Shown: positions 21,665-60,821 of the stretch, one piece after another
How the letters are laid out: the number at the start of each line of letters is the position of its first letter
Numbering within the stretch: position 1 is the first letter of the stretch
Origin: Candidatus Woesearchaeota archaeon
Lineage (GTDB): Archaea; Nanobdellota; Nanobdellia; Woesearchaeales; GCA-2686295
Direction: 5' to 3'
Assembly (NCBI GenBank): GCA_937912225.1
Contig: CALDOJ010000038.1
Span: 17,408-81,407, forward strand
Length of the DNA stretch: 64,000 bases
Translations under genes and position numbers: made by a program
The notes under the pieces: generated by a model
Database searches by the model: none
The model's input: only the letters and a program-made list of their open reading frames with translations
Told to the model about the DNA's origin: nothing

Positions 21665-22936
21665 ATGAATAAAATGAAAGTATTGAAATTAATTCTTGTG
21701 TTAGTAATGACCATGCTTATAACCAGTATGGTAAGTGCAGTTGATTTAGGCTTAACGTCTTTAAAGATTAACGGCGAAGAGTTTGGAGATGCAGCATCAA
21801 ACCCAAGTAACTCGTTAGAAGTAAAAAGAGGCGAAGATTTAACAATTAAACTTCGTGTTAGAGCTACTGCAGATGTAAGTGATGTGCAAATTGAAGCAGA
21901 CATTTACGGTTACAGATACGCTCATAGAGAAGCAGATTCTGTTTCTGACGTTACAAAGACTTTTGACTTAGCAGAAAATGTAACTTCATTTAAGACTTTG
22001 GAATTAAAAGTTCCATCAAATATTGATAAAGAACATTTCTATTTAAGAGTTAGAGTTGCTGATAGATACTCAACTTCATATGAACAAGTATATGATTTAT
22101 TTGTTTCAGGTGTAGATGCAGAAGACGCAGTAATTATCAAAGATTACTCCTTTAGTCCATCAAATGTTGTTGCAGCAGGAAGAGCATTCACAACAACAGT
22201 AAGAGTACAAAATATTGGAGACGATACTTTAGATGACGTTAAAGTAACAGTAGAAATTCCAGAATTAAATGTTAAAGACTCAGAATACTTAGATGAATTA
22301 AGTGCTGACGAAAAAGAAACATTAGATGAATTTTTATTAAGAATACCAGATTGTGCAGCTCCAGGAGTTTATGAAGTAGAAATCACAGCAGAATTTGATG
22401 AATATGAATCATCATCAGAAACAGCTTCATTAACTATTGTTGACGGAGACACATGCGGTGTAACAGCTAGCGGAACAGGAAGAACAGTTGTATCAGTTCC
22501 AGAAAATCAAGATGTTGCACAAGGTACAGACGCAGTTTACCCATTAATGATAACTAACCAAGGAAGTACAGCAAAAACTTATGCAGTAACATTATCAGGC
22601 CTTGGAGCATGGGGAAGTGCAAGAATGGAACCATCATCAGTAACAGTTGTAGAAGCAGGTGAAACAAGCACTATTTATTTATATGTTTCAGCAAACGATG
22701 ATGCAAACTCCGGAACTAACGGCTTTAAAGCAACAATAAGTTCAGACGGTGAATCAAAAGACGTAGCATTAACTGCAAATGTTGTAGCAGATAATAGCGG
22801 AATGGGTTCATTACAAGGACTAGAAATTGCATTAGTTGTTTTAGTAATCATCTTAATCATTATTGGTTTAATAATTGGCTTCAGCAAATTAAGAAACAAT
22901 GATGACGACGACGAAGGTTCACAAACTTATTACTAA
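21665..22936 (+). CDS. Secreted cell-surface protein with N-terminal signal peptide, C-terminal TM anchor and acidic cytoplasmic tail (S-layer/adhesin candidate)
   Basis: Signal peptide MNKMKVLKLILVLVMTMLITSMVSA; a Ser/Thr/Asp/Glu-rich beta-type body with N-x-S/T sequons; C-terminal TM LEIALVVLVIILIIIGLIIGF followed by DDDDEGSQTYY. Strong SD GAGGGGG at 21657..21663. Confidence 0.6.
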   Translation: MNKMKVLKLILVLVMTMLITSMVSAVDLGLTSLKINGEEFGDAASNPSNSLEVKRGEDLTIKLRVRATADVSDVQIEADIYGYRYAHREADSVSDVTKTFDLAENVTSFKTLELKVPSNIDKEHFYLRVRVADRYSTSYEQVYDLFVSGVDAEDAVIIKDYSFSPSNVVAAGRAFTTTVRVQNIGDDTLDDVKVTVEIPELNVKDSEYLDELSADEKETLDEFLLRIPDCAAPGVYEVEITAEFDEYESSSETASLTIVDGDTCGVTASGTGRTVVSVPENQDVAQGTDAVYPLMITNQGSTAKTYAVTLSGLGAWGSARMEPSSVTVVEAGETSTIYLYVSANDDANSGTNGFKATISSDGESKDVALTANVVADNSGMGSLQGLEIALVVLVIILIIIGLIIGFSKLRNNDDDDEGSQTYY

Positions 22937-22988
22937 GTTTGTATTTTTTTTCTTTTTTTATTAACTTTTTTTATAATGGTAAATAACG

Positions 22989-25286
22989 ATGTCCATCAAA
23001 TATTTGTCTAAACTAATTATACTTCTCTTTATACTCATATCCATCATTAATTTTTCAAGTGCGATACAGCTATCAACTTCACAATCATTATTGAATATTT
23101 GTCAATGCGCACAAAAAACAGATTCATTCACAGTAACAAATGATGGAGCTTATAGCGCAATTTTTACTGTTTCAGATAATCAAGAGTTTGTAATTCTTTC
23201 TGATACAAAATTCGAATTAAAACCAGGAGAATCAAAACAAGTATTGACTTCTATTAATGCTGCTTGTGATATGAAGGGTGAATATTCTTTAGAAATATTA
23301 GTTACAACCAATTTAGGAACTGGTAAAAAACTAATTAAAACAATTAATATAGGTAAATGTCAAAACTTAAAAGCTTATTTAACTATTGATGATGAGGAAA
23401 TAAATCCTTGTAAAGAAGCAGATTATTCTATTAAAATAGAAAATACAGGTTTTTTTAAAGAAACATATGAAATAAAAGCGACTAATTTTGAAAAATATTT
23501 TAATTTATCAACTGAAGAAATAACTCTTAATCCTGATGAAACAGGATTAGTTAATGCAAAGTTAAATTTACCTTGTGATCTTTATGGAGTACAACCTGTT
23601 GAATTTTCAATAAAAGCAGTTAATAACGCTCTTATGGCTAGTTTAAAGCATGATCTTCAAGTAAATCAGTATTATGGTTATTCATTGCTTTTAGAAGATG
23701 AGTACCATGTTTGTGAAGAAGAACCTGTAAATATTCCTGTTGTTTTATCAAACGATGTTAACACTCCTAATTCTTATTCATTAAAATTAAGAGGACAACC
23801 AATAATTGCACAATTAAGTAAGACTAAAATTGAATTAGAAGGAAAGGAAGAAGAAACTTTTGAAATAGAACTTAATATTCATGAAGGGAGAAGTGTTGGA
23901 ACATATAATTTTCAATTAGTAACTTCAACAGGATATGGAGATACTTTTAATGATGCAAATATTACTTTAGTAATTGAAGATTGTTATAATCATAAAATTG
24001 ATTTAACAGGACCTAAAAAATTCTGTTCAGGAGAAGAAGAATTTAATCTAAACATTAGAAATGATGGTGTTTATACTGAAGAAGTAACTTTAGAAACTAT
24101 TGAAGGTTTTGCAGAGTTAGAAGATGAAAAAATAACTTTAGAATCTGGATCTGAAAAAAATGTTGTTTTAGAAGTAAAAACTGAAGATGTTAGCAAACGT
24201 TATTCATTATGGGCAAAAGCGAAGTTAGATAATGATTTAGAAGTTGTAGACAGTCAAGTATTAAATGTTAAATCAAATGATGAATGTTATTTTGTAGATG
24301 TTGAAAAAACAAAATTTGATGTCAAAGCTCATAAAATAAATGGGATAGTTATTGAATTAGAAAATAAAGGTTTAGTTGGAGCAGATTATGAATTAAAACT
24401 TGAATCAGAACCTTGGATGCATCTAAATGAAACAGAAATTCATTTAGAACCAAAAGAAGAAAAAAATGTTGTGTTATTCTTGAATCACACAGAAGAAACT
24501 GCTTTTGGCAAGTATAAAGCAAACTTAACAATTCAAACAGATAATGCAATTTATCTTAAAGAAATAGTAATTGATTTAGAAAACAAGTCTTTGATTGTAA
24601 GAGCATTTATTTATTCTAAAGAAAACCCTTGTAAAACTTTAACAGTACTATTAGGATTAGTATTCATAATTTTATTATTAAAAGTCATATTTAGTAAGAA
24701 AGCGAAAGGAAAAATAAAAGTAAAAACAGTTTTATTAAGCCTTTTAATATTAATAATTCTTTCAGGTTTAGCTTTAGGAGGAACTTATTTGTACAAAGGA
24801 ATGCCTACTTTATATTCTGAATTAGATTTTTCAGAAGCTAATCCAGTTAAACATGTATGGGCAGAAGATACAGTTTATACAATTGATTTCTTTGATTACT
24901 TTGAAGATCCTGACTCTGATGAAATAGTATTTTCAGTTTCAGAACTTGAAAATATAGATTCAAGTATTGAAGGAAATATTCTAACTTTAACACCAGAAGA
25001 AGATTGGTTTGGAGAAAGAGCAGTTATATTTACAGCAACAGATTCAAAAGAAGCATCTGTAAGTAGTTCGCCAATATTCCTTAAAGTATTAGATGTAGAA
25101 GAATTTAATTTTTGTAATATTTATAACAAGAATTGTTTATATGTAAATGATGGACTTTTAATGTTGTGTTTATTATTAGTTTTTATTATTGTTTTGAAAA
25201 AAGCAAGAAAAGTTATATTTGGACGAAAAAAAGGTTCTAAGAACAGTAAAAAAACTAATAAGAAGAAAAGTAAAAAAAGAAGATAA
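22989..25286 (+). CDS. Large secreted cell-surface protein with signal peptide, internal and C-terminal TM segments and a basic C-terminal tail
   Basis: 765 aa. Signal peptide MSIKYLSKLIILLFILISIINFSSA, repetitive beta-rich domains, hydrophobic segments near residues 550-600, and a C-terminal TM plus KKARKVIFGRKKGSKNSKKTNKKKSKKRR. Confidence 0.55.
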   Translation: MSIKYLSKLIILLFILISIINFSSAIQLSTSQSLLNICQCAQKTDSFTVTNDGAYSAIFTVSDNQEFVILSDTKFELKPGESKQVLTSINAACDMKGEYSLEILVTTNLGTGKKLIKTINIGKCQNLKAYLTIDDEEINPCKEADYSIKIENTGFFKETYEIKATNFEKYFNLSTEEITLNPDETGLVNAKLNLPCDLYGVQPVEFSIKAVNNALMASLKHDLQVNQYYGYSLLLEDEYHVCEEEPVNIPVVLSNDVNTPNSYSLKLRGQPIIAQLSKTKIELEGKEEETFEIELNIHEGRSVGTYNFQLVTSTGYGDTFNDANITLVIEDCYNHKIDLTGPKKFCSGEEEFNLNIRNDGVYTEEVTLETIEGFAELEDEKITLESGSEKNVVLEVKTEDVSKRYSLWAKAKLDNDLEVVDSQVLNVKSNDECYFVDVEKTKFDVKAHKINGIVIELENKGLVGADYELKLESEPWMHLNETEIHLEPKEEKNVVLFLNHTEETAFGKYKANLTIQTDNAIYLKEIVIDLENKSLIVRAFIYSKENPCKTLTVLLGLVFIILLLKVIFSKKAKGKIKVKTVLLSLLILIILSGLALGGTYLYKGMPTLYSELDFSEANPVKHVWAEDTVYTIDFFDYFEDPDSDEIVFSVSELENIDSSIEGNILTLTPEEDWFGERAVIFTATDSKEASVSSSPIFLKVLDVEEFNFCNIYNKNCLYVNDGLLMLCLLLVFIIVLKKARKVIFGRKKGSKNSKKTNKKKSKKRR

Positions 25287-25323: not shown

Positions 25324-25450
25324 GGGGACGTAGTATAACCTGGCTAGAATGGTCGGCTCCAGAATCTGGAGCAATGAGGCATTGCCAATGATTAATAATG
25401 CCCATTCGTGGAGATACCGTCAGATGAGGGTTCGAATCCCTCCGTCCCCA
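25324..25450 (+). tRNA. Intron-containing tRNA (~74-nt mature tRNA plus ~53-nt intron); anticodon tentatively CCA (tRNA-Trp)
   Basis: Acceptor stem GGGGACG/CGTCCCC with discriminator A, T-arm GAGGG-TTCGAAT-CCCTC, and candidate anticodon loop CU-CCA-G. A 53-nt insertion with two hairpins (CTCCAGAATCTGGAG; GGCATT..AATGCC) sits at the canonical 37/38 position. The D-arm pairing is imperfect, so the isotype is uncertain. Confidence 0.7.
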
Positions 25451-27572: not shown

Positions 27573-28679
27573 ATGGGAAAGTCAACTAAGTTTTTTTTGG
27601 TGAAAAAAATTCTGTTATTGCTTATAATTATAATATTATTTTTGTTTGTATTAGAATTATTTCTACGTTTTTTTGAGAAAGAACTTATAATTCCTATTAC
27701 TTCACGTTATATAAAAAATGAAAATCTTATTATTGCTTACTCAAATAGACCTAATTATACTTCTAATTCGCAAGTATTAGTTGATGGAAAAGTAATTAAT
27801 GATTTTTCTAGATGGAACTCTATAAGCATTAACAATCAAGGTTTTAGAGATAAAGAATATTCTTATGATAAATCTAATAATACTTTTAGAATTCTAGCTA
27901 TTGGTGATTCAATAACTTTTGGATATAATGTCGCATTAGAAAATACTTGGTCAAAAAAACTTGAGAATAAACTCAATAATAATTCGAACATTAGTTTTGA
28001 AATAATTAACATGGGTGTTGGGGGATATAGTTTAACTCAAGAAATTGAACAAATAAGAATTGAATATTCTAAATATTCTCCTGATATGGTCATTATAGAG
28101 TATTTTCTTAACGATCCTCATTTTCAAGAAATACATACTGTTCTAGATGTATTATCTTTTAAAGAGCTAAGAGCTCGTGAAGATATTATGATAGAAGAAT
28201 ATGATTTACCTTTTAAATGTGCCTTCAGAAATAATATTGCTAAAATAAGATTTTTAACGGAGTTTTCTTTTATAAATATATTTCCGCTTTATTTCCAAAA
28301 AAATTTGTTTTATGACGGATTATATATTCATAGTTATGAACATAGCCATGAAGATATCTGTTCTTGGTTAAGAGTTCAGAAAGGTTTTGAGAAATTGAAA
28401 AAACTTAGTCAAGATAATGATTTTTCAATACTTTTGTTTGTTCAACCAGCACTTATAGATTATAATGTTCACAACTTAGAATGGATTCATAAAAAAGTTA
28501 TTACTGAATCTTTAAAAAATAATTTCATATCGATAGATATGTATGATGTTTATAAAAAAGTGTCTTTGAATCTTCTTTTGAATAAAAACCTTCCTGAAAT
28601 AGTTCATCCGAGTGAATATGGTCATGAATTGATTGCAAACAGACTTTTTGAAGAATTATCTTCTCAAGGATTAATTTAA
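27573..28679 (+). CDS. Membrane-anchored SGNH/GDSL-family hydrolase (possible glycan O-acyl esterase/acyltransferase)
   Basis: N-terminal TM helix, then the GDS block ILAIGDSITFGYNV and a downstream G..N..GV.GY block. Confidence 0.55.
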   Translation: MGKSTKFFLVKKILLLLIIIILFLFVLELFLRFFEKELIIPITSRYIKNENLIIAYSNRPNYTSNSQVLVDGKVINDFSRWNSISINNQGFRDKEYSYDKSNNTFRILAIGDSITFGYNVALENTWSKKLENKLNNNSNISFEIINMGVGGYSLTQEIEQIRIEYSKYSPDMVIIEYFLNDPHFQEIHTVLDVLSFKELRAREDIMIEEYDLPFKCAFRNNIAKIRFLTEFSFINIFPLYFQKNLFYDGLYIHSYEHSHEDICSWLRVQKGFEKLKKLSQDNDFSILLFVQPALIDYNVHNLEWIHKKVITESLKNNFISIDMYDVYKKVSLNLLLNKNLPEIVHPSEYGHELIANRLFEELSSQGLI

Positions 28680-28724: not shown

Positions 28725-29462
28725 TTATTCTTTAACTTCAACCTTACCATAATATTTCAATGGTATTTCTGGTCTATAAAAGTGCTGCCAATCTTTTGAA
28801 TATTCCCAATCTCCACCCCATTTCCATCCAGCTTCACGAAATATTTTTACCACATTTGAACCTGAAAAAAGAGTTCCTCTCAGATTTGGATCATATGGTC
28901 TATTAGCAGTTTCATTTATCCAAGGATTTATCAATGGATTAATATCAATAGCTGCACCAAATGCATGATCGGTTATTTCATTACTGCCTTTAACTAAACG
29001 CCAATCAAATCCTCCTGAATTATTGTATTTTACTGATGAGTTCCAATTAAAAAGACTAAGAGGTATGATGCTTGTAATTGGAAAATCAGTTTCTTTTAGA
29101 ATTCTGTTGAAAACTTGCTTTGTTGAATCAACTAATTCTTTATGAACAATGATTTGTCCAGTGTAAGTTTGATTATTAAAACCCTTATAGTTTACTTCAA
29201 CCAATGATAAGCTATCAATAATTTCTTCCGGAATATTCTTATTTTTTAAAGAATTTAAATATTGATTTTCAGTAAGTAAGGGAATTGAAGTAATAGGGAG
29301 TTCATAAAATTTAGGATTATTTAAGATTTCTTCGAATGAATGATTGGGCCATAAAGATTGAACTGTATCTTTAACTCTTTGTAACCCATCAACAGCTGAT
29401 TTTTCAACAGTTAAAAGCAACATTTTTTCAAGCTCTTTAAGTTTAGAATTCATATCTTCCAC
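28725..29462 (-). CDS. M15-family zinc D,D- or L,D-peptidase (VanY / D-Ala-D-Ala carboxypeptidase-like)
   Basis: M15 zinc-ligand motifs DHAFGAAIDINP (H-x-x-G-x-A-x-D) and WGGDW..DWQHF (D-x-x-H). Confidence 0.6.
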   Translation of the reverse strand: MEDMNSKLKELEKMLLLTVEKSAVDGLQRVKDTVQSLWPNHSFEEILNNPKFYELPITSIPLLTENQYLNSLKNKNIPEEIIDSLSLVEVNYKGFNNQTYTGQIIVHKELVDSTKQVFNRILKETDFPITSIIPLSLFNWNSSVKYNNSGGFDWRLVKGSNEITDHAFGAAIDINPLINPWINETANRPYDPNLRGTLFSGSNVVKIFREAGWKWGGDWEYSKDWQHFYRPEIPLKYYGKVEVKE

Positions 29463-29647
29463 TAGTAGAAGAATAATTCAAGCAATATAAAGGTTTTAGT
29501 TAATTAAAGATTATTTCTTGTTCTTGTTTTTGAAAAATATTCTTATTAAATAGATTGGTATTAGCAAGTTTTATAACTTTGTATAATCATCTATTTATTA
29601 GAGGTTAAAAATTAACAAAATAAAACAAAAGATTAAGAGATATTTTT

Positions 29648-30039
29648 ATGATATTGCTAAAATCAAGACTACGCCTCATTCAATAGCATTAGGGTTTGCC
29701 ATTGGCACATTTATAGGAATATTACCCACTCCAGGATTTAGCATTATTCTTGCAGTAATTATCCTATCTATTTTTAAGAATGTTAGCAAGATTTCTCTTT
29801 TTGCAGCACTACTATTATTTAATCCAATTGTTAATATTCCATTTAATATCTTGTCTTTTAAATTTGGCGATTTTATATTTAAAAATTCTCCAATTCAGGA
29901 ATTGAGTATTCCGCTTTTTAGTAAAATTTATTATTTCACAAGGAGATACCTTGTTGGAAATATTATTATTTCAAGTTCAATATCGATATTAGGTTATTTT
30001 TGCATTAAATTAGTGGTTACTAAAATACAGAAACATTAA
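29648..30039 (+). pseudogene. DUF2062-family membrane protein gene interrupted by a frameshift about 35 nt after its ATG (or a sequencing error)
   Basis: ATG at 29648 reads MILLKSRLRLIQ then stops. The adjacent frame continues ..SIALGFAIGTFIGILPTPGFSIILAVIILSIF..NPIVNIPFNIL.. to 30039, which is the DUF2062 core. The long frame has no ATG or GTG until a TTG at 29851. Confidence 0.5.
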
Positions 30040-30259: not shown

Positions 30260-30661
30260 TTAATCGTTCAGACACATGGATTCTTTTGAAATTGTTCCCA
30301 TGAGGACTTGTTCAACACAACCAGTTACTAGTTCTTCAGGATAACAAGTTCCTACAATATTTTTTAAAGGACCTTTTGTAAGATTGATTTTTTGTTTATC
30401 AGTTAATGTTGGTGGGAAACAAACTCCACTTATGCACTGTCCTCCATCAGTACATATTTCACCAGCATTTTTGTAGGAAAGGAGACAAGTTTGATTGTCA
30501 GTCCATTGCCCACCAACCCTTTCACACACTGGTTCATCTTTTGGTGGTCTATGACTTGGTAAGGCTGAATAAAGAAGGCCTAAAACAATTCCAAATAAAA
30601 TGATGCTTGCAAAAATTATGATGATAAATAATAATGATTTAGAAGTATTTTGTTTTTGCAT
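30260..30661 (-). CDS. Small secreted/membrane-anchored cysteine-rich protein
   Basis: N-terminal TM/signal anchor followed by about 70 residues with 10 Cys (C..GG.W.....C.....AGEICTDGGQCISGVC...). Confidence 0.45.
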   Translation of the reverse strand: MQKQNTSKSLLFIIIIFASIILFGIVLGLLYSALPSHRPPKDEPVCERVGGQWTDNQTCLLSYKNAGEICTDGGQCISGVCFPPTLTDKQKINLTKGPLKNIVGTCYPEELVTGCVEQVLMGTISKESMCLND

Positions 30662-33980: not shown

Positions 33981-35486
33981 ATGAGCAAACAATTTTTACA
34001 AGAGTTAGTCTCTTTTATCCAACAAAAAGGGTTTATTTGGGGTCCTGAACCAGAGATTTATGGTGGTCTTGCAGGTTTTTATACATATGCTCCTTTAGGT
34101 AAATTATTGAAGAATAATGTAGAAGGCACTATAAGAACTATTTTTCAAAAAAATAATTTCTTTGAAGTAGAATGTCCAACAATCATGCCAAAGAAAGTTT
34201 GGGAAGCATCTGGTCATCTTGGTGGGTTTACTGATCCAGTAGTTAAATGTAGTAAATGTAACGCTTCATTTAGAGCAGATAATCTCTTAGAAGAATTATT
34301 TCCTGATAAAGTCATTAAAGATGTTACTGAATTCTTCAAAAATAACGAAGTAAAATGTCCTTCTTGTAAAGAAAGATTGCCTGCAGAGGTAAAAGAACAT
34401 AACTTAATGATGAAAACGACTGTGGGGCTTGATATTGAAGCTTATAATCGACCTGAAACTGCAACTACAACTTATTTACCATTCATACGATTCTACGAAC
34501 ATTTTAGAAAAAAACTGCCTTTTGGAGTTTTTCAAATAGGAAATGCTTATCGAAATGAAATTAGTCCAAGACAACATGTCTTAAGAACAAGAGAATTTAC
34601 TCAAGCAGAAGCACAATTATTTATTTTTGAAGAACAGAAAAATGATTTTCCTAAATATAAAGCAATCAAAAAGAAAAAAATGCCTTTTTGGTCATGGCCT
34701 TCTCAAAACAAAGAAATGCAAGTTGAAACTTTATCTGTTGAAGATGCTATGAAGAAAAAATACTTCAAAAATGAAGCTTATGCATACACAGTTAATCTTG
34801 CATATCAAGTTTTTAGAATAATGGGCATTCCTGATGCTAATATTCGATTAAGACAACACGGACCTGACGAAAAAGCATTTTATGCAGATGATGCATGGGA
34901 TGTAGAAGTAAATCTAAACAGTTTTGGTTGGACTGAATTATGTGGAATTCATGACCGAACAAACTATGACTTAAAGCAACACGGAAAATTTTCAGGAAAA
35001 AGCATGGAAGTAATGAATGAGGCTAATGAAAAGAAAGTTCCTCATGTATTAGAAATCGCTTTTGGAGTTGCAAGACCAACATTTGCATTACTTGATTTAT
35101 TTTATGATAAAAAAGAAGATGGAGCAGGTAAAACAGTTTTAAAATTACCATTAAACATGGCTCCTATGAAAGTGGCTGTATTTCCATTACTAAAAAAACC
35201 AGAATTATTAAAACTTGCAAACGGCATTTATGAAGATTTAAGTCAAGAATTCATTTGTAAATATGATGAATCGGCATCAATAGGAAAGAGATATCTTCGT
35301 GCAGCAGAAGAAGGAATTCCATTCGCAGTTACTGTTGATTTTGATTCGCTTGATGATAAAGCAGTTACTTTAAGAGATAGAAATACTGAAAAACAAAAAA
35401 GAATTAAAATTCAAGGACTAAAAGAAACAATCACTTCTCTTATCAGAGGAGAAATCAAATTCAAAGATATCAAAGAAAACCTTTAA
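33981..35486 (+). CDS. glyS: Glycine--tRNA ligase, archaeal/eukaryotic-type (class II, alpha2)
   Basis: N-terminus LQELVSFIQQKGFIWGPEPEIYGGLAGFYTYAPLG, zinc-ribbon-like CSKC..CPSC insertion, and 501 aa. Confidence 0.85.
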   Translation: MSKQFLQELVSFIQQKGFIWGPEPEIYGGLAGFYTYAPLGKLLKNNVEGTIRTIFQKNNFFEVECPTIMPKKVWEASGHLGGFTDPVVKCSKCNASFRADNLLEELFPDKVIKDVTEFFKNNEVKCPSCKERLPAEVKEHNLMMKTTVGLDIEAYNRPETATTTYLPFIRFYEHFRKKLPFGVFQIGNAYRNEISPRQHVLRTREFTQAEAQLFIFEEQKNDFPKYKAIKKKKMPFWSWPSQNKEMQVETLSVEDAMKKKYFKNEAYAYTVNLAYQVFRIMGIPDANIRLRQHGPDEKAFYADDAWDVEVNLNSFGWTELCGIHDRTNYDLKQHGKFSGKSMEVMNEANEKKVPHVLEIAFGVARPTFALLDLFYDKKEDGAGKTVLKLPLNMAPMKVAVFPLLKKPELLKLANGIYEDLSQEFICKYDESASIGKRYLRAAEEGIPFAVTVDFDSLDDKAVTLRDRNTEKQKRIKIQGLKETITSLIRGEIKFKDIKENL

Positions 35487-43748: not shown

Positions 43749-45146
43749 TTGTTAAGAACAAATACGTGCGGAGAATTAAATAAGAAGTTTGCAGGCAAAG
43801 AAGTAACTTTATCTGGTTGGGTAGACTCGATGAGAATCAGTGGAAAAATTGGATTCTTAACAGTTAGAGATCGTTATGGAAAAACTCAATGTTTCTTAGG
43901 AAAAGACATAATTGAAGAATTTGGAGAAATTAGACGAGAATCTGTTGTCCAAATTACTGGTCTTGTAAAAGAAAGACCTGATAATCAGAAAAGAGATGAA
44001 CCAACAGGAGAAATAGAACTTTCTGCAACTAAATTAGCAGTATTATCTGCTGCTGAACCTTTACCTTTAGAATTGGATGATTCTATTCAAACAAGCGAAG
44101 ATAATAGATTAAAATACAGATATTTAGATTTAAGAAGACCAACAATGGTAAATAATCTTACTATGAGGCATAAATTAATCCAGTATATTAGAAATCATAT
44201 GAGTGATAATAAATTTTTAGAAATTACAACTCCTATTTTAACTAAGAGCAGTCCAGAAGGAGCCAGGGACTATTTAGTTCCAGCAAGACTTCATCCTGGA
44301 AAATTCTATGCTTTACCTCAAGCACCACAACAATATAAACAATTATTAATGGTTGGAGGAATTGATAGATATTTTCAAATTGCACCTTGTTTTAGAGATG
44401 AAAATGCAAGAGCAAATAGAGCGCCAGGTGAATTTTATCAGTTTGACGTTGAAATGAGTTTTGTTCATCAAGAAGATATTCTAAATATGATTGAAGAATT
44501 AATGATTAAATTAGTAAAAGACTTATTTCCAGAAAAGAAAATTACAGAAGTACCATTTCCAAGATTAGAGTTTGATGACGTTATGAAAAAGTATGGAACT
44601 GACGCGCCAGATATCAGAAAAAATAAAGATGATCCAAATGAATTAGGATTTTGCTTTGTTGTAAACTTTCCATTATTTGTAAAACAATCTGAAGAAGATT
44701 TTTTTCATGGAGCAGGAAAAGAATGGGGTCCAAGCCATCATATGTTTACAATGCCACGCGTTGAAGATTTAAAATTATTAGATAGTGAGCCTGGAAAAGC
44801 AAGAGCTTACCAACATGACCTTGTTATGAATGGAATGGAAGTTGGTGGTGGAAGTATTAGAATTCATGACCCAAAAATTCAGCAAAAAATCTTTGATTTA
44901 ATTGGTTTTTCAGAAACTCAAGCAGCAGAATTCAAACACATGATAGAAGCGTTCACTTATGGAGTTCCTCCACATGGTGGAATTGCACTTGGAGTTGATA
45001 GATTACTAATGATTCTGATGAATGAACCAAGTATTCGAGAAATCATCGCGTTTCCAAAGAATAAAGATGCAAGGGACGTTACAATGGATGCACCATCAAA
45101 GGTTTCTAAAGAACAGTTGGATGAATTAGGAATTAAGACTAAATAA
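43749..45146 (+). CDS. aspS: Aspartate--tRNA ligase, bacterial-type sequence signatures, short (465 aa)
   Basis: N-terminus RTNTCGEL..VTLSGWV, flipping loop YALPQAPQQYKQLLM, motif 2 FRDE (bacterial form rather than archaeal FRAE), motif 3 GGIALGVDRLLMIL. Confidence 0.75.
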   Translation: MLRTNTCGELNKKFAGKEVTLSGWVDSMRISGKIGFLTVRDRYGKTQCFLGKDIIEEFGEIRRESVVQITGLVKERPDNQKRDEPTGEIELSATKLAVLSAAEPLPLELDDSIQTSEDNRLKYRYLDLRRPTMVNNLTMRHKLIQYIRNHMSDNKFLEITTPILTKSSPEGARDYLVPARLHPGKFYALPQAPQQYKQLLMVGGIDRYFQIAPCFRDENARANRAPGEFYQFDVEMSFVHQEDILNMIEELMIKLVKDLFPEKKITEVPFPRLEFDDVMKKYGTDAPDIRKNKDDPNELGFCFVVNFPLFVKQSEEDFFHGAGKEWGPSHHMFTMPRVEDLKLLDSEPGKARAYQHDLVMNGMEVGGGSIRIHDPKIQQKIFDLIGFSETQAAEFKHMIEAFTYGVPPHGGIALGVDRLLMILMNEPSIREIIAFPKNKDARDVTMDAPSKVSKEQLDELGIKTK

Positions 45147-45158
45147 TTTTTTTTATTT

Positions 45159-45362
45159 TTATAACTTTTTCAATATTTCTTTGTCTTTTTCAATTGCGTC
45201 TTCGATGGCTTGTTGAATGTATTTTTTCATAGTTGTATTTTTTAATACAGCACAGACTTTAGCTAGAGAATGAGTTTTAGTCTTTAATTCTATATTAACA
45301 TCCTTAAGTTTTTCCATCTTAAACAAATAAGAACATTCATTATTTATATACTTTTCTACCAT
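45159..45362 (-). CDS. Small ribbon-helix-helix (CopG/antitoxin-like) DNA-binding protein, tentative
   Basis: 67 aa. The C-terminal half (..SLAKVCAVLKNTTMKKYIQQAIEDAIEKDKE) resembles RHH helix-turn-helix segments. Confidence 0.3.
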   Translation of the reverse strand: MVEKYINNECSYLFKMEKLKDVNIELKTKTHSLAKVCAVLKNTTMKKYIQQAIEDAIEKDKEILKKL

Positions 45363-45444
45363 CTTTATTACTTTTATTATCTTTATTACTTTTATTCAAA
45401 CTTTATGCAAAACTTTAAAAAACTCTTTAATAACTTATTCTTCT

Positions 45445-46737
45445 ATGAAATACACAACAATACAAGAATCTATGGACATAGGAACAGGTGAAGTTTCAAC
45501 AAGAGGTTGGGTCTATAGAGAACGAGGATCTAACAAAATTAAGTTTATCGTTCTCAGAGATAGCACTAATATAATACAATGTGTGCTTAAAAAAGATAAT
45601 TTCGCTAATAACTGGGATGAAATAGATGGTATTCAAATGGAAACTTCAATTGAACTAGAAGGAACTATAAAAAAAGATGATAGAGCTCCAACTGGATATG
45701 AAATTGATGTTAAAGAATACAAGATTGTTGGAAGTTCAGATAGTTTTCCAATTACAAAAGATCAAAGCCCAGAATTCTTACTTGATAACAGACATTTATG
45801 GATTAGAAGTAGAAAAATGGTTTCTATTATGAAAATTCGTTCTGCTTATGGTCAAGCAAGAGAAGAATTTTTCAAAAAAGAAGGTTTTTGGAGATTTGAT
45901 ACTCCAGTTCTTCAACCAAACCAATCAGAAGGTGGATCTACAGTATTTGAAGTTAAATACTATAAAGTAAAAACCTACTTAGCTCAAACTTGGCAATTAT
46001 ATGGTGAAGCTGCAATCTTTGCATTAGAAAAGGTTTACAATACAGGACCAACTTTTAGAGCAGAAAAGAGTAAAACTTCAAGACATCTTTCAGAATTTTG
46101 GATGGTTGAAACAGAAGTCGCATGGTGGAAGTTAAAAGAAATAACTGAATTTGCAAAGAAAGAATTAAAGTACTGTATTTCAAAAGTTGCAGAAGAACTA
46201 CCAGAAGAATTCGAATCGTTAGGAAGAGATCCAAAAGAATTAATTGCAATGTGCAAAAAGGAATGGCCAACAATGAAGTATCGAGAAGTTCTAAAAATCT
46301 TAGAAGAAAAAGACGGAATGAAAGTTAAGTTTGGAAAAGATCTTAGAACTGTTGAAGAAGAAACTATTATGCAACATTTTGATACGCCAGTTGTTGTAAC
46401 ACATTATCCACAAGAAGTTATGGCTTTTTACAAACCAAAAGATCCTGATTATCCTGATGAAGCTCTTTGTTTTGATATGCTTTGTCCGGAAGTTGGAATT
46501 GAAATTGTTGGTGGAAGTGAACGAAGTCTTGACATAAAAGAAATGTCTGAGAATTTAAAACGAGATGGTGAAAATCCTGATGACTATCAATTCTACTTTG
46601 ATTTAAGAAAATATGGATCTGTTCCACATTCAGGATATGGTGTTGGATTAGAAAGAGTTATTCAATGGATTTGTAAACTTGATAACATTAAAGACGCGAT
46701 TGGATTTCCAAGAACTATGCTTAGATGGACCCCATAA
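45445..46737 (+). CDS. asnS: Asparagine--tRNA ligase
   Basis: YLAQTWQLYGEAAIFALEKVYNTGPTFRAEKSKTSRHLSEFWMVETEVAW matches the AsnRS motif-2 region (..SGQLNGE....[32 protein letters not shown]) rather than AspRS SPQLYKQ. The C-terminus is GFPRT. Confidence 0.75.
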   Translation: MKYTTIQESMDIGTGEVSTRGWVYRERGSNKIKFIVLRDSTNIIQCVLKKDNFANNWDEIDGIQMETSIELEGTIKKDDRAPTGYEIDVKEYKIVGSSDSFPITKDQSPEFLLDNRHLWIRSRKMVSIMKIRSAYGQAREEFFKKEGFWRFDTPVLQPNQSEGGSTVFEVKYYKVKTYLAQTWQLYGEAAIFALEKVYNTGPTFRAEKSKTSRHLSEFWMVETEVAWWKLKEITEFAKKELKYCISKVAEELPEEFESLGRDPKELIAMCKKEWPTMKYREVLKILEEKDGMKVKFGKDLRTVEEETIMQHFDTPVVVTHYPQEVMAFYKPKDPDYPDEALCFDMLCPEVGIEIVGGSERSLDIKEMSENLKRDGENPDDYQFYFDLRKYGSVPHSGYGVGLERVIQWICKLDNIKDAIGFPRTMLRWTP

Positions 46738-57988: not shown

Positions 57989-59209
57989 ATGAGAGTACTA
58001 ATGTTTGGGTGGGAGTTTCCGCCATTTTATTCAGGGGGTTTGGGGACTGCATGTTATGGTTTAACAAAAGGACTTAGCCATCATAATGTAAAAGTCACAT
58101 TTGTAATGCCTAAAGGACCTGATACTGTAAAATCGGATTTTGTAAAACTTCTAGTAGCTGATAAAGCATTTAAGAATCATAATTTTAGAATTAAAAAAAT
58201 AGATTCTATTTTAACACCTTATCTAAATTCTCAAACATATAATGAAAAATTTCAAGATTATAGTTTAATGCTAAAAAAACAAAGTACAGAATTACTCTAT
58301 GGAAAGAACATGTTTGAAGAAGTCTATCGATTCAGTGAACAAGCAAAACTAATTGCATTAAGCGAAGAATTTGATGTTATACACGCTCATGATTGGATGA
58401 CTTATATGGCAGGTATAAAAGCTAAAAAAGTATCAGGTAAACCACTAGTCGTTCATATGCACGCAACAGAATTTGACCGAACAGGTGGAAATGGAATAAA
58501 CCAGTATGTGTATGATATTGAAAAAAGAGGAATGCACGAAGCAGACAAAGTATGTGCTGTAAGTAATTATACAAAAAGTATGGTTGTACAACATTATGGA
58601 GTGCCACCAGAAAAAGTAGAAGTTGTTCATAACGCAGTTGAATTCTCAGATAGACAAATATATCGAATTGAAAAAACAGACAAAGTAGTTTTATTCTTAG
58701 GAAGAATTACACTTCAAAAAGGACCTGAATATTTTGTTGAAGCTGCAAAGAAAGTAATGGATAGAGATCCAAATGTTAAATTTGTAGTAGTCGGAAGTGG
58801 AGATATGGAACCACAAATGATTGAACATGCAGCAAGTTTAGGAATTGCAAACAGAATGTTATTCGCAGGATTCTTAACTGGTGAAGACGTAAACAAAGCT
58901 TATCAAATGGCTGATATTTATGTTATGCCATCAGTTAGCGAACCGTTTGGAATAACTCCATTAGAAGCAATGAAATCCGGAACACCAGTAATTATTTCAA
59001 AACAATCAGGAGTAAGTGAAGTAATACAAAATTGTTTAAAAGTAGATTTTTGGGATGTGGACGATATAGCAAATAAAATATTATCCTTATTACATTATGA
59101 AACATTACATCAAACATTAAAACATCATGGAACAATTGAAGTTGATAAGTTTAATTGGGATATACCTGCAGAAAAATGTTTAAGAATATACAATGAGTTA
59201 GTAAGATAG
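57989..59209 (+). CDS. Archaeal-type glycogen/alpha-glucan synthase-like GT-B glycosyltransferase (GT4/GT5)
   Basis: N-terminus MRVLMFGWEFPPFYSGGLGTACYGL and C-terminal EPFGITPLEAMKSGTPVI. Confidence 0.55.
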   Translation: MRVLMFGWEFPPFYSGGLGTACYGLTKGLSHHNVKVTFVMPKGPDTVKSDFVKLLVADKAFKNHNFRIKKIDSILTPYLNSQTYNEKFQDYSLMLKKQSTELLYGKNMFEEVYRFSEQAKLIALSEEFDVIHAHDWMTYMAGIKAKKVSGKPLVVHMHATEFDRTGGNGINQYVYDIEKRGMHEADKVCAVSNYTKSMVVQHYGVPPEKVEVVHNAVEFSDRQIYRIEKTDKVVLFLGRITLQKGPEYFVEAAKKVMDRDPNVKFVVVGSGDMEPQMIEHAASLGIANRMLFAGFLTGEDVNKAYQMADIYVMPSVSEPFGITPLEAMKSGTPVIISKQSGVSEVIQNCLKVDFWDVDDIANKILSLLHYETLHQTLKHHGTIEVDKFNWDIPAEKCLRIYNELVR

Positions 59210-59219
59210 AGGAAACAAA

Positions 59220-60452
59220 ATGAATATATGTTTTTATTTTCAAGTACACCAACCGTACAGACTTAGAACTTATTCGGTGTTTGATATAGGTCAATCAAAA
59301 AATTATTTTGATGATGAAAAGAATAAGGAGATAATGTTAAAAGTAGCAAAAAAATGTTATTTACCAACTAACAAACTTATTTTAGATTTAATAAAAAAAC
59401 ACAAAGGAGCATTCAAAGTAGCATTTAGCATCTCAGGAGTTGCATTACAACAATTTGAAGAATGCGCTCCAGAAGTATTAGCTTCATTTCAAGAATTAGC
59501 AAAGACTGGATGCGTAGAATTTTTATCAGAAACTTATTATCACTCATTAGCTTATCTTTATTCAAAAGAGGAATTTGAAGAACAAGTAAAATTACATAAG
59601 AAAAAAATCAAGAAACTTTTCAATCAAGACCCAATAATTTTTAGACATACAGAACTTATCTATAATAATGAATTAGCAAATTATGTTGAGAAAATGGGCT
59701 ATAAAGGAATCCTTGCAGAAGGAGCGGATCATGTTCTTGGTTGGAGATCACCAAATTATGTTTACACACCAAAAGGAACTAGCAAGATTAAATTATTATT
59801 AAAAAACTATAAACTTAGTGATGATGTAGCATTTAGATTTGGAGATAAATCTTGGAAAGAACACCCATTAACAGTTGAAAAATTTGCAACATGGGTAGAA
59901 CAAAACGAAGGAGATTCAATAAATCTATTCATGGATTATGAAACCTTTGGAGAACATCAATGGGAACACACAGGAATATTTGAGTTCATAAAACATCTGC
60001 CAGAAGAAATTCTAAAAAGAAACATTGGTTTTAAATTTCCATCAGAACTATTAATATTTGAACCAAAAGCAGAATTAGACGTTCATAACTTCATGTCATG
60101 GGCAGATGTAGAACGAGACCTAAGTGCATGGTTAGGAAACAAAATTCAAGAATCTGCAATTAATGAATTATACATGATTGAAGAATCAGTTAAAAAATTA
60201 AAAGATGAGAAATTGCTTGAAGATTGGAGAAAACTAACAACATCAGATCATTTCTATTACATGTGTACTAAATGGTTTAATGACGGGGATGTACACAAAT
60301 ATTTTAACCCATACGACAGTCCATATGATGCATTCATAACATATATGAATATACTAAATGATATGATTATTAGAATTAAAATGAAACAAGGATTAAAAGT
60401 CAGTCCTAATTTTAAAATAAGTGAACATTCAAGTTCAGAGATTAGAACATAA
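59220..60452 (+). CDS. Glycoside hydrolase family 57 protein (alpha-amylase / alpha-glucanotransferase / branching-enzyme type)
   Basis: GH57 N-terminal signature ICFYFQVHQPYRL and downstream acidic catalytic-region pattern. Confidence 0.65.
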   Translation: MNICFYFQVHQPYRLRTYSVFDIGQSKNYFDDEKNKEIMLKVAKKCYLPTNKLILDLIKKHKGAFKVAFSISGVALQQFEECAPEVLASFQELAKTGCVEFLSETYYHSLAYLYSKEEFEEQVKLHKKKIKKLFNQDPIIFRHTELIYNNELANYVEKMGYKGILAEGADHVLGWRSPNYVYTPKGTSKIKLLLKNYKLSDDVAFRFGDKSWKEHPLTVEKFATWVEQNEGDSINLFMDYETFGEHQWEHTGIFEFIKHLPEEILKRNIGFKFPSELLIFEPKAELDVHNFMSWADVERDLSAWLGNKIQESAINELYMIEESVKKLKDEKLLEDWRKLTTSDHFYYMCTKWFNDGDVHKYFNPYDSPYDAFITYMNILNDMIIRIKMKQGLKVSPNFKISEHSSSEIRT

Positions 60453-60463
60453 AAGAGGTAAAA

Positions 60464-60817
60464 ATGGTTTTGCAAGAATACGAACACTTTCATTTCATTC
60501 ACGGAACAAAAGCAGAAAAGATAGATGATTTAAAAGAAGGAATTATTGGCATGACTGAAGCAGATTTTAAACATCATGTAACTGCAAAAAAGAATGATTT
60601 CGCAACTTGGCTACATCAAACATTCAAAGAAGAAAAACTTGCATCAAAACTTAGAAAGATAAAAACAAAAGAGAATACAATCAAAGCATTAGAAGAATAT
60701 TTAGAAGAAAAAAATAAAAACTATTCAATTGAATACCGAAGATTTGTTGTAAAAGAATTCATGTATGGACTGGTAATAGGTTTAATCATTGGATTTATAA
60801 TTGCAAAACTGATATAA
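60464..60817 (+). CDS. Hypothetical small protein with C-terminal TM anchor
   Basis: 117 aa. Hydrophobic C-terminus MYGLVIGLIIGFIIAKLI. Confidence 0.35.
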   Translation: MVLQEYEHFHFIHGTKAEKIDDLKEGIIGMTEADFKHHVTAKKNDFATWLHQTFKEEKLASKLRKIKTKENTIKALEEYLEEKNKNYSIEYRRFVVKEFMYGLVIGLIIGFIIAKLI

Positions 60818-60821
60818 AAAA

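What the first reader, a model, noticed from the sequence alone, without database searches (positions are those of the whole stretch)
28725..29462. M15-family D-Ala-D-Ala carboxypeptidase-like zinc peptidase in an archaeon lacking peptidoglycan
Clear M15 zinc-ligand motifs (H-x-x-G-x-A-x-D and D-x-x-H) are present. Archaea have no murein. In DPANN-type episymbionts, murein hydrolases have been proposed to act on bacterial neighbours or hosts, or to be horizontally acquired. The neighbouring SGNH hydrolase on the opposite strand is also an extracytoplasmic-type enzyme.
Basis: partly seen in the sequence, partly recalled or inferred. Interest (0 to 1): 0.55.

Follow-up and report, generated by a model that had tools for sequence, protein, structure and literature searches.

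The report
Leaderless murein-type peptidase in DPANN archaeon
A tiny symbiont-type archaeon, which builds no bacterial-style cell wall, carries an intact and conserved bacterial wall-cutting zinc peptidase that has lost its export signal; wall-degrading enzymes are already reported in these archaea, so this is a modest new example.

Summary
ORF 28725..29462 (-), 245 aa, matches Pfam Peptidase_M15_4 (E=3.6e-18). It has the zinc triad H166/D173/H227 and the catalytic Asp D224, all invariant in 29 homologues.

The window is archaeal, and its GlyRS is closest to Woesearchaeota/Nanoarchaeota sequences. The gene is native in composition and under purifying selection (dN/dS 0.16-0.37).

The wider family is bacterial and exported. 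Its large members fuse the same core to Amidase_2, LysM and SLT, so peptidoglycan is the family substrate.

The window protein belongs to a small subfamily with its own N-terminal helices and C-terminal tail. Signal-peptide or lipobox forms, labelled Bacteriovoracaceae and Haliangium, branch basally. About 33 leaderless forms make a derived clade (78/100 bootstraps), and three of their contigs were checked and are archaeal. That clade keeps every residue that is universal in the family.

No neighbour is conserved across loci, and there is no wall-binding domain, holin or phage context.

Best reading: a bacterial-origin stem-peptide peptidase kept without an export signal. It most likely salvages imported wall peptides in the cytoplasm. 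A non-classically delivered antibacterial role is the main rival.

Peptidoglycan hydrolases in Woesearchaeales, including Sec-exported LysM+Peptidase_M15, were published in 2025. This is a new member of a known kind, of modest interest.

The parts
28725..29462 (-). Complete gene for a 245-aa M15 (Peptidase_M15_4) zinc peptidase, GTG start, no signal peptide
   Evidence: ORF. Pfam E=3.6e-18. About 50 full-length homologues at 45-76% identity. dN/dS 0.16-0.37. AlphaFold2 model with pLDDT 90.3 and pTM 0.89. GC 0.302 and GC3 0.175, both within 1 SD of the window's genes.
29298..29462 (-). Residues 1-55: a subfamily-specific N-terminal extension of three helices (H4-19, H26-37, H43-48). It is hydrophilic or amphipathic and is not a signal peptide.
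   Evidence: Secondary structure from the model. The maximum Kyte-Doolittle 12-residue mean is 0.92, against more than 2.0 in signal-peptide-bearing homologues. Only 3 of the 150 best 50%-identity representatives cover profile positions 1-246.
28770..29297 (-). Residues 56-231: the catalytic core shared with the large exported bacterial family
   Evidence: The profile search found 6168 hits at E<=1e-3 and 316 at E<=1e-30. Most align from about position 55-85 to 231. All universally conserved residues are retained.
28944..28967 (-). Codons H166-D173 (HAFGAAID): two of the three zinc ligands, inside the T/S-x-H-x-x-G-x-A-x-D motif
   Evidence: Read from the sequence. Invariant in alignment A1 and in the leaderless, signal-peptide and outgroup sets.
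28782..28793 (-). Codons D224-W-Q-H227: the catalytic Asp and the third zinc ligand (DxxH)
   Evidence: Read from the sequence. Invariant. Aligns to the equivalent KD(Y/W)xHF segment of Ply500 and LysB4.
28725..28769 (-). Residues 232-245 plus the stop codon: a conserved subfamily-specific C-terminal tail (PEIPxKYYGKxEVxE)
   Evidence: K240 is invariant, and G239, E242 and E245 are nearly invariant. The wider family ends at about position 231.
29484..29491 (-). TTTATATT, a TATA-box-like element about 26 nt upstream of the GTG start. This spacing would give a leaderless or near-leaderless mRNA.
   Evidence: Read from the sequence. This is inference only; no transcript data are available.

Best explanation
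The gene encodes a catalytically intact zinc peptidase of the M15 family (Pfam Peptidase_M15_4, the CwlK/Ply500-like branch). Its ancestors were exported bacterial peptidoglycan stem-peptide hydrolases.

Shown here:
- The zinc triad and catalytic Asp are intact, and the fold is predicted with high confidence.
- The gene is under purifying selection.
- The host is a Woesearchaeota/Nanoarchaeota-like archaeon.
- The protein belongs to a derived leaderless clade nested among signal-peptide-bearing bacterial forms.
- Every family-wide conserved residue is retained.
- Related cores are fused to Amidase_2, LysM and SLT.

Inferred:
- There was one bacterium-to-DPANN transfer, followed by loss of the signal peptide.
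- The substrate is still a bond next to a D-amino acid in a murein stem peptide. L-Ala-D-Glu is most likely, and D-Ala-D-Ala or D-Ala-mDAP are possible.
- The enzyme most probably works in the archaeal cytoplasm. I found no export signal, membrane anchor, wall-binding domain, holin or injection-system partner. There it would cut wall-derived peptides taken up from bacteria or the surrounding water, so that an auxotrophic cell can use their amino acids.
For: - Identity: Pfam PF13539 at E=3.6e-18. H166, D173, D224 and H227 are invariant. The profile matches the Ply500 L-Ala-D-Glu peptidase at 1.1e-5 and LysB4 at 6.5e-4. Foldseek against viral models matches M15C endolysins and 'DD-carboxypeptidases' at probability 1.0, E=7e-7 to 3e-4.
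- Real and selected gene: pLDDT 90.3. dN/dS is 0.16-0.37. GC and GC3 are typical of the window.
- Archaeal host: AglB/STT3, RFC large subunit and an intron-containing tRNA. GlyRS is 67-68% identical to Woesearchaeota/Nanoarchaeota sequences. Other leaderless homologues lie beside archaeal Kae1 and TFIIB, and beside fibrillarin and Nop5.
- Peptidoglycan as the family substrate: wider-family members fuse the same core to Amidase_2, LysM, SLT and AmiA-like domains. 19 of the 20 sampled representatives begin with a hydrophobic leader or, in one case, an upstream extension that looks like a mis-called start; one (P0315) has none.
- Leaderless clade: about 33 close homologues have no hydrophobic N-terminus, and 11 have a signal peptide or lipobox. 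The leaderless clade is monophyletic in 78/100 NJ bootstraps and the whole subfamily in 98/100, with the signal-peptide forms basal.
- No functional shift: only one conservative difference (I/V at position 163) separates leaderless from signal-peptide forms at conserved columns.
- Weak hints of cytoplasmic peptide or amino-acid metabolism near homologues: an S66 LdcA-like carboxypeptidase 5 kb away in L016, and a Glu/Leu/Phe/Val dehydrogenase immediately downstream on the P0016 contig.
Against: - No uptake system for muropeptides or oligopeptides was identified. The one MFS transporter in the window has unknown specificity.
- No partner is conserved across ten loci, so the pathway context is missing.
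- The S66 and dehydrogenase neighbours each occur once.
- Strock et al. found that 68% of archaeal modular peptidoglycan hydrolases lack a recognised signal peptide, even though their wall-binding domains imply an outside role (PMC12352652). Absence of a leader is therefore weak evidence for a cytoplasmic location.
- Signal peptides were judged with a hydrophobicity heuristic, not a trained predictor.
- The tree is neighbour-joining on 176 columns.
- Matches to solved structures are weak. The best Foldseek hit against the PDB has E=0.06.
Confidence: 0.4

Rival explanations
1. Antibacterial or host-attack enzyme. The peptidase is delivered outside the cell without a Sec or Tat signal, for example by a contractile-injection or PAAR-type system, by vesicles, by cell-cell bridges, or with a holin-like partner. 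It then opens the peptidoglycan of a bacterial host or competitor.
For: - The family substrate is peptidoglycan, and the active site is unchanged.
- The bacterial members of the same subfamily come from contigs labelled as predatory lineages, Bacteriovoracaceae and Haliangium.
- In one archaeal locus (L023) the gene is flanked by a PAAR-motif protein and a PT-HINT protein.
- Woesearchaeota and Pacearchaeota are reported to carry large extracellular lytic transglycosylases (PMC8204110; PMC9723730).
- Archaeal peptidoglycan hydrolases have been shown to kill bacteria, and leaderless ones are enriched in genomes that encode a sheath protein (PMC12352652).
- From my own knowledge, not tested here: the leaderless M15C endopeptidase ChiX of Serratia is exported through a holin.
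Against: - The 64-kb window has no sheath, VgrG, PAAR or holin gene.
- The PAAR neighbour occurs in one of about ten loci, and its NCBIfam score is well below cut-off (34.8 against 124).
- The protein has no wall-binding domain.
- The divergent DUF2062 membrane-protein gene is not found next to other homologues.
Confidence: 0.3
2. The substrate is endogenous and not murein. The enzyme acts like VanX or DdpX as an intracellular dipeptidase or peptidase, on D-Ala-D-Ala-like or other unusual peptides made by the archaeon's own ATP-grasp ligases or present in its envelope or metabolites.
For: - In archaeal locus L026 the M15 gene lies directly downstream of two ATP-grasp genes of the D-Ala-D-Ala-ligase type. 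One of them is fused to a lysine-2,3-aminomutase-like radical SAM domain.
- In the same locus the M15 gene is followed by an unknown gene and a GNAT acetyltransferase, all on one strand.
- A leaderless state fits an intracellular enzyme.
Against: - That neighbourhood is found in one locus only. tblastn finds no such ligases in the window or in the other loci.
- There is no Pfam match to VanX (PF01427) or VanY (PF02557) at E<=0.1.
- The catalytic motif is DxxH, not the ExxH of VanX.
- No conserved residue has shifted relative to the exported bacterial wall hydrolases, which argues against a new substrate.
Confidence: 0.17
3. Artefact or relic: either a bacterial contig mis-binned as archaeal, or a decaying transferred gene with no function.
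For: MAG labels in this family are unreliable. Examples are the 'Methanosarcinales', 'Altiarchaeota' and 'Gammaproteobacteria' labels on low-GC contigs, and a 'Bacteroidota' label on the closest named GlyRS.
Against: - The gene sits in one contiguous sequence between archaeal housekeeping genes: the YGR210-type GTPase, RFC large subunit and GlyRS.
- Other assemblies contain 99.9-100% identical DNA across this region, and neighbouring proteins of the window were seen on 9 contigs.
- Its composition matches the window.
- The reading frame is intact, dN/dS is 0.16-0.37, and the catalytic residues are invariant.
Confidence: 0.03
4. Remodelling of the archaeon's own pseudomurein or murein-like wall.
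For: None was found. The option stays open only because 64 kb cannot exclude wall-synthesis genes elsewhere in the genome.
Against: - The nearest homologues are DPANN and bacterial, not Methanobacteria or Methanopyri.
- There are no Mur-type ligases or pseudomurein genes in the window.
- The window instead carries an AglB-centred protein-glycosylation island and large Ig-domain surface proteins.
- A wall-remodelling enzyme would need to be exported, and this one has no signal.
Confidence: 0.02

Closest known systems
CwlK-type L,D-endopeptidases and other single-domain 'M15 family metallopeptidases' of bacteria (Pfam PF13539; JGI labels several homologues 'peptidoglycan LD-endopeptidase CwlK')
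   Same: Same Pfam family, and the same H-x6-D...D-x-x-H zinc site. The core of about 175 residues is shared. All universally conserved residues are retained: Q103, W140, N147, N148, R155, H166, D173, D224 and H227.
   Different: The bacterial proteins carry a signal peptide or lipobox, and the window protein has none. The window protein has extra N-terminal helices (residues 1-55) and a conserved 14-residue C-terminal tail. The host makes no murein as far as can be seen.
Phage endolysin catalytic domains Ply500 (2vo9) and LysB4 (6akv), L-alanoyl-D-glutamate endopeptidases (M15C)
   Same: These are the best matches among solved structures by sequence profile (1.1e-5 and 6.5e-4) and by Foldseek rank. 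They share the GWxWGGDW...KD(Y/W)xHF segment with the DxxH motif. PHROGs endolysin families match weakly.
   Different: Only the C-terminal 27-40 residues or so align by sequence. The Foldseek E-value against the PDB is only 0.06. The window has no phage context and no cell-wall-binding domain.
Modular peptidoglycan hydrolases of archaea, including Sec-exported LysM+Peptidase_M15 proteins of Woesearchaeales (Strock et al. 2025, PMC12352652)
   Same: Bacterial-origin wall hydrolases with a patchy distribution in Nanoarchaeota/Woesearchaeales.
   Different: Those proteins were selected for having a wall-binding domain, and the listed LysM+Peptidase_M15 examples carry Sec signals. This protein is single-domain, leaderless and from a different Pfam M15 family (M15_4). 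That survey's criteria would not have captured it.
Large extracellular lytic-transglycosylase proteins of Woesearchaeota and Pacearchaeota (Castelle et al. 2021, PMC8204110; Vigneron et al. 2022, PMC9723730)
   Same: Murein-directed enzymes in the same archaeal lineages, read as signs of interaction with bacteria.
   Different: Those are glycosidases of up to 3000 aa and are predicted to be extracellular. This is a 245-aa peptidase with no export signal.
VanX/DdpX cytoplasmic D-Ala-D-Ala dipeptidases (M15D), and the holin-exported leaderless M15C endopeptidase ChiX of Serratia (both recalled from my own knowledge, not tested here)
   Same: These are precedents for M15 enzymes that lack a signal peptide, either acting in the cytoplasm or exported by a dedicated holin.
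   Different: There is no Pfam match to VanX (PF01427) at E<=0.1, and the motif is DxxH, not ExxH. No holin-like partner is conserved next to the gene.

Membership tests
Peptidase_M15_4 (PF13539), M15C-like | Profile score above the curated threshold | tested here: met
   66.3 bits against a cut-off of 25, E=3.6e-18, profile positions 2-69 of 70
Peptidase_M15_4 (PF13539), M15C-like | Zinc ligands His-x6-Asp plus a distal His | tested here: met
   H166, D173 and H227 are invariant in 29 homologues and in the outgroups
Peptidase_M15_4 (PF13539), M15C-like | Catalytic carboxylate three residues before the distal His (D/E-x-x-H), and a Ser/Thr two residues before the first His | tested here: met
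   D224-W-Q-H227. T164-D-H166 in the window, where most homologues have Ser
Peptidase_M15_4 (PF13539), M15C-like | Hedgehog/DD-peptidase fold | tested here: inconclusive
   The model is confident (pLDDT 90.3). It matches predicted phage M15C structures at probability 1.0. The best solved structure, Ply500, reaches only E=0.06 and a TM-score of 0.33.
Peptidase_M15_4 (PF13539), M15C-like | Hydrolysis of a bond next to a D-amino acid in murein stem peptides | not testable with these tools
   Supported only indirectly, by fusions of the same core to Amidase_2, LysM and SLT and by the unchanged pocket residues
Exported bacterial wall hydrolases of this family | N-terminal signal peptide, lipobox or membrane anchor | tested here: not met
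   The window protein's maximum 12-residue hydropathy is 0.92, against more than 2.0 in the signal-peptide forms. About 33 clade members are the same. The conserved start position and GTG start rule out a missed upstream leader.
Modular archaeal peptidoglycan hydrolases (Strock et al. 2025) | At least one catalytic domain plus one cell-wall-binding domain | tested here: not met
   Only PF13539 is found at E<=0.1. There is no LysM, PG_binding, SH3 or similar domain. The criterion is taken from PMC12352652.
VanX/DdpX D-Ala-D-Ala dipeptidase (PF01427) and VanY (PF02557) | Profile match; ExxH catalytic motif (VanX) | tested here: not met
   Neither family matches at E<=0.1. The motif is DxxH.
Pseudomurein endoisopeptidase (Pei) or own-wall remodelling in pseudomurein archaea | Homology to Pei-type enzymes; host in Methanobacteria or Methanopyri | tested here: not met
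   There is no such Pfam or NCBIfam hit. The homologues come from contigs labelled DPANN archaea or bacteria. GlyRS places the host with Woesearchaeota/Nanoarchaeota.
Phage or provirus endolysin | Viral gene neighbourhood (holin, structural or replication genes) and endolysin family membership | tested here: not met
   PHROGs endolysin hits are weak; the best is E=4.8e-5. The neighbours are housekeeping genes. The composition matches the window.

The most novel reading that the evidence does not exclude
The leaderless clade marks a lineage of marine and brackish-water Woesearchaeales-like DPANN archaea that live off bacteria rather than archaea. In one version the enzyme digests bacterial wall peptides inside the archaeal cell, which would be an archaeal muropeptide-salvage route. 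In the other it is cargo of a contact-dependent delivery system that breaches the bacterial wall. Either way, a single small gene would serve as a genomic marker for bacterial hosts of DPANN archaea.
Probability: 0.25. Interest if true: 0.6.

Novelty: new member of a known kind. Interest (0 to 1): 0.3.

Why it matters
Who hosts or feeds most Woesearchaeota-type DPANN archaea is still an open question. Murein-directed enzymes are among the few genomic hints that some of them interact with bacteria.

This gene adds a conserved, single-domain, leaderless peptidase clade to the catalogue of archaeal wall hydrolases. Published surveys of modular or very large extracellular enzymes would not capture it. 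The enzyme is small, predicted to fold confidently, and should be easy to express. Its substrate and location could therefore be tested directly.

The general phenomenon is already documented, so the gain is incremental.

Tried and rejected
- **Conserved gene neighbourhood.** I ran tblastn of 14 window proteins against eight loci with close homologues (L001-L008) and six with more distant ones, and read the gene tables for nine further contexts. No neighbour is shared. The SGNH hydrolase, the DUF2062 protein and the Cys-rich protein are specific to this organism.
- **Holin-like partner.** The divergent DUF2062 membrane protein is not found beside other homologues.
- **Phage or provirus origin.** Rejected on the neighbours and on composition.
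- **VanX, VanY, M15_2 or M15_3 membership.** No Pfam hits.
- **NCBIfam.** It gave only a spurious MphL hit at 17.6 bits against a cut-off of 612.
- **Functional divergence after transfer.** A column-by-column comparison found only one conservative I/V difference.
- **Foldseek against the PDB.** Uninformative beyond ranking Ply500 and LysB4 first.
- **Extending the view beyond the window.** Both look-ups of the edge genes failed, because no gene with exactly that product is on record.
- **Literature.** The two completed searches for M15 or DD-carboxypeptidase terms together with Woesearchaeota or DPANN found nothing specific.
- **Domain assignment of homologue contigs.** Resolved for L023 (Kae1), L024 (TFIIB) and L026 (fibrillarin/Nop5). 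L025 carries Lgt, and L016 also remains ambiguous.
Full report
**1. The observation**

It matches Pfam Peptidase_M15_4 (PF13539) at 66.3 bits against a cut-off of 25, E=3.6e-18. No other M15 Pfam family (VanX, VanY, M15_2, M15_3) appears at E<=0.1.

The two motifs are T164-D-H166-A-F-G-A-A-I-D173 and D224-W-Q-H227. I checked their codons on the DNA at nt 28944-28967 and 28782-28793. In a 29-sequence alignment whose members are 44-76% identical to the window protein, H166, D173, D224 and H227 are invariant, along with 29 other positions.

An AlphaFold2 model built on that alignment is confident, with mean pLDDT 90.3 and pTM 0.89. Pairwise dN/dS against six homologues with DNA is 0.16-0.37. The gene's GC (0.302) and GC3 (0.175) lie within one standard deviation of 42 ORFs of the window. 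This is a real, expressed-looking gene that has been maintained and has long been resident.

The start is probably the GTG at 29462. The two closest homologues with DNA also begin with GTG at that codon, and one of them has no ATG at codon 4. A TTTATATT element lies about 26 nt upstream (my reading). Gene callers that chose Met4 or a later start give 242-aa or 232-aa products. No choice of start adds an upstream leader.

**2. The host**

The window is archaeal. It carries:
- a 1003-aa AglB/STT3, an RFC large subunit and a YGR210-type Obg-like GTPase;
- TYW3, a HerA-type helicase and a KaiC/RadA-like ATPase;
- a 127-nt tRNA hit in Rfam that implies an intron.

The window's GlyRS is 67-68% identical to proteins named Woesearchaeota or Nanoarchaeota archaeon. 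Nearly all of the other named hits are DPANN. The one closer named hit, labelled 'Bacteroidota bacterium', is most likely a mis-binned contig.

None of the roughly 56 window ORFs I scanned belongs to a murein or pseudomurein synthesis family. The left third of the window is a protein-glycosylation island, followed by two large Ig-domain surface proteins. 'Lacking peptidoglycan' is therefore plausible, but 64 kb cannot prove it.

**3. The family**

A profile search of 1.84 billion representatives found 6168 relatives at E<=1e-3 and 316 at E<=1e-30.
- Almost all of them share only the core, roughly residues 56-231 of the window protein.
- Of 20 representatives I read, 18 begin with a hydrophobic leader. 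One more (P0215) has an upstream extension that looks like a mis-called start, and one (P0315) has no leader.
- Of ten large members scanned, six fuse the same C-terminal core to N-acetylmuramoyl-L-alanine amidase domains (Amidase_2 or AmiA-like), one of these also to LysM and another to SLT. This is strong indirect evidence that peptidoglycan is the family's substrate.

Among solved structures, the best matches by sequence profile are the L-alanoyl-D-glutamate endopeptidases Ply500 (1.1e-5) and LysB4 (6.5e-4). A T5-like L-Ala-D-Glu endopeptidase follows at 0.77. Foldseek against the PDB ranks the same two first, but weakly (E=0.06). Foldseek against predicted viral structures gives probability 1.0 matches to M15C endolysins and 'DD-carboxypeptidases'. 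The Pfam name 'D-alanyl-D-alanine carboxypeptidase' should therefore not be read as a substrate assignment. An L,D-endopeptidase activity is at least as likely.

**4. The subfamily and its history**

Only three of the 150 best representatives cover the whole length. These correspond to about 50 sequences in the 90%-identity collection. The subfamily has two features of its own:
- three N-terminal helices, residues 1-55;
- a conserved C-terminal tail, PEIPxKYYGKxEVxE.

A simple hydropathy scan splits the subfamily cleanly. About 33 members, including the window protein, have no hydrophobic N-terminus (maximum 12-residue mean below 1.4). Eleven carry a signal peptide or lipobox (above 2.0).

A scan of GTDB species representatives found eight genomes with close homologues:
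- two labelled Woesearchaeota;
- two labelled 'Methanosarcinales' with 30-32% GC;
- one 'Altiarchaeota';
- one 'Gammaproteobacteria' with 32% GC;
- one Bacteriovoracaceae;
- one Haliangium.

The labels are not reliable. However, L023 carries an archaeal-type Kae1 and L024 a TFIIB, and L026 carries fibrillarin and Nop5. At least four leaderless members, including the window's, therefore sit in archaeal DNA. The signal-peptide-bearing forms correspond to the bacterial-labelled contigs.

In a neighbour-joining tree of the core, the signal-peptide forms branch basally and the leaderless forms make a derived clade. That clade is recovered in 78 of 100 bootstraps, and the whole subfamily in 98 of 100. 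The simplest history is one transfer from a bacterium into a DPANN lineage, loss of the leader, and diversification.

The scan found only eight hits among 185,579 species representatives. It used exact peptide patterns, so this is a lower bound, but it suggests the gene is patchy even within Woesearchaeales.

**5. What it probably does**

A column-by-column comparison of leaderless, signal-peptide and outgroup sequences shows that every universally conserved residue is retained in the leaderless clade. These include Q103, W140, N147, N148, R155, H166, D173, D224 and H227. Only one conservative I/V difference separates the two groups. I take this to mean the chemistry and the substrate pocket were kept, so the substrate is still a murein-type stem peptide.

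The protein has no signal peptide, membrane segment or wall-binding domain. No neighbour is conserved across about ten contexts. The window holds no sheath, VgrG, PAAR or holin gene.

On balance I favour a cytoplasmic role: cutting wall-derived peptides taken up from bacteria or the water, to recover amino acids in an organism with little biosynthesis. Confidence is 0.4 for the full statement. It is much higher, about 0.85, for 'intact bacterial-origin murein-type M15 peptidase'. Two weak hints point the same way:
- an S66 LdcA-like carboxypeptidase 5 kb from the homologue in L016;
- a Glu/Leu/Phe/Val dehydrogenase immediately downstream on the P0016 contig.

The main rival (0.3) is a non-classically delivered antibacterial or host-attack enzyme. 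In its favour:
- the bacterial members of the subfamily come from contigs labelled as predatory lineages;
- a PAAR-motif protein and a PT-HINT protein flank the homologue in archaeal L023;
- the literature reports lytic transglycosylases in Woesearchaeota and bactericidal archaeal hydrolases;
- Strock et al. report that most archaeal modular hydrolases lack a recognised signal peptide, which weakens my localisation argument.

A second rival (0.17) is an endogenous substrate. In L026 the gene follows two ATP-grasp genes of the D-Ala-D-Ala-ligase type, one of them fused to a lysine-2,3-aminomutase-like domain, and it precedes a GNAT acetyltransferase. That arrangement occurs only once.

Contamination or a decaying relic (0.03) and pseudomurein remodelling (0.02) are contradicted by the evidence above.

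**6. Comparison with what is known, and novelty**

The protein is a member of Pfam Peptidase_M15_4. Its score, zinc triad and catalytic motif all meet the definition. It departs from the family norm in lacking an export signal.

It is not a VanX, a VanY, a Pei-type enzyme or a phage endolysin. It does not meet the 'modular' criterion of Strock et al. 2025, whose tables list Sec-exported LysM+Peptidase_M15 proteins in Woesearchaeales. Large extracellular lytic transglycosylases in Woesearchaeota and Pacearchaeota were described earlier.

NCBI already names a clade member 'M15 family metallopeptidase' in an archaeal MAG. The new element is a conserved, single-domain, leaderless clade with its own terminal extensions, nested among exported bacterial forms.

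**7. Verdict**

This is a new member of a known kind. Interest is 0.3.

The most novel reading still open is that the clade marks bacteria-dependent DPANN archaea, through either muropeptide salvage or contact-dependent wall attack. I give it about 0.25 probability, and it would deserve about 0.6 interest if true.

**8. Limits**

- Signal peptides were judged by hydropathy alone.
- The tree is neighbour-joining on 176 columns.
- dS is partly saturated and is biased by the low GC.
- The model coordinates could not be inspected.
- Only 64 kb of the genome was available, and both attempts to look beyond it failed.

Noticed in passing
window 29620-30039 (+): A 139-aa DUF2062 membrane-protein gene lies divergently about 160 bp upstream of the M15 gene. 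In this window its first codon is ATA, so the ORF lister reports only a 62-aa TTG fragment (29851-30039). A 99.9% identical assembly (L021) has ATG there and calls the full gene.
   Followed up: partly
L026 6860-12934: In an archaeal contig (fibrillarin and Nop5 nearby), five genes lie on one strand. In order they are a 697-aa fusion of a lysine-2,3-aminomutase-like radical SAM domain with a D-Ala-D-Ala-ligase-type ATP-grasp domain, a second Ddl-like ATP-grasp gene, the M15 peptidase, an unknown 445-aa protein and a GNAT acetyltransferase. This may be a peptide or beta-amino-acid pathway. It was seen only in this locus.
   Followed up: partly
L023 2502-6742: A PAAR-motif protein (199 aa, convergent with the M15 homologue) and a PT-HINT protein (337 aa) sit in a contig with an archaeal-type Kae1. 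The same contig has a bacterial-type short AlaRS. The MAG is labelled 'Methanosarcinales' despite about 30% GC.
   Followed up: partly
L016 13805-14788: A Peptidase_S66 protein (LdcA-like muramoyltetrapeptide carboxypeptidase family, 122 bits, below the equivalog cut-off) lies 5 kb from the 72%-identical M15 homologue, on a 263-kb contig.
   Followed up: no
window 25324-25450 (+): Rfam finds a 127-nt tRNA (40.8 bits) covering the whole model, which implies an intron. ARAGORN did not report it.
   Followed up: no
window 27573-28679 (+): The neighbouring SGNH/GDSL hydrolase (368 aa) has an N-terminal membrane anchor, so it is probably extracytoplasmic. Its 90%-identity cluster has a single member, and it is not found next to M15 homologues elsewhere.
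   Followed up: partly
window 30260-30661 (-): A 133-aa protein with an N-terminal membrane or signal segment and a Cys-rich C-terminal half, with weak EGF-like and defensin-like Pfam hits below threshold. It was found only in assemblies of this organism.
   Followed up: no
window 128-25286: A large envelope-glycosylation island. It holds several GT4 and GT2 glycosyltransferases, epimerases/dehydratases, radical SAM and methyltransferase genes, a 1003-aa AglB/STT3, a PMT_2-type transferase and a carbamoyltransferase. Two large Ig-domain/NPCBM_assoc surface proteins follow (21665-25286).
   Followed up: no
window 57989-62609 (+): A glycogen gene cluster: a GT4/GT5 starch-synthase-like protein, a GH57 enzyme, and a 595-aa protein matching Pfam Glycogen_syn (PF05693) at E=6e-156. 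From my own knowledge, that family is best known from eukaryotic GT3 glycogen synthases.
   Followed up: no
window 33981-35486 (+): The closest named GlyRS homologue (72% identity) is labelled 'Bacteroidota bacterium', while nearly all other named hits are DPANN archaea. This is probably a mis-binned contig in a public MAG.
   Followed up: no
window 43749-46737 (+): Two adjacent class II aminoacyl-tRNA synthetase paralogues (tRNA-synt_2 with an OB anticodon-binding domain, 465 and 430 aa). They are presumably an AspRS/AsnRS or AspRS/LysRS-type pair.
   Followed up: no
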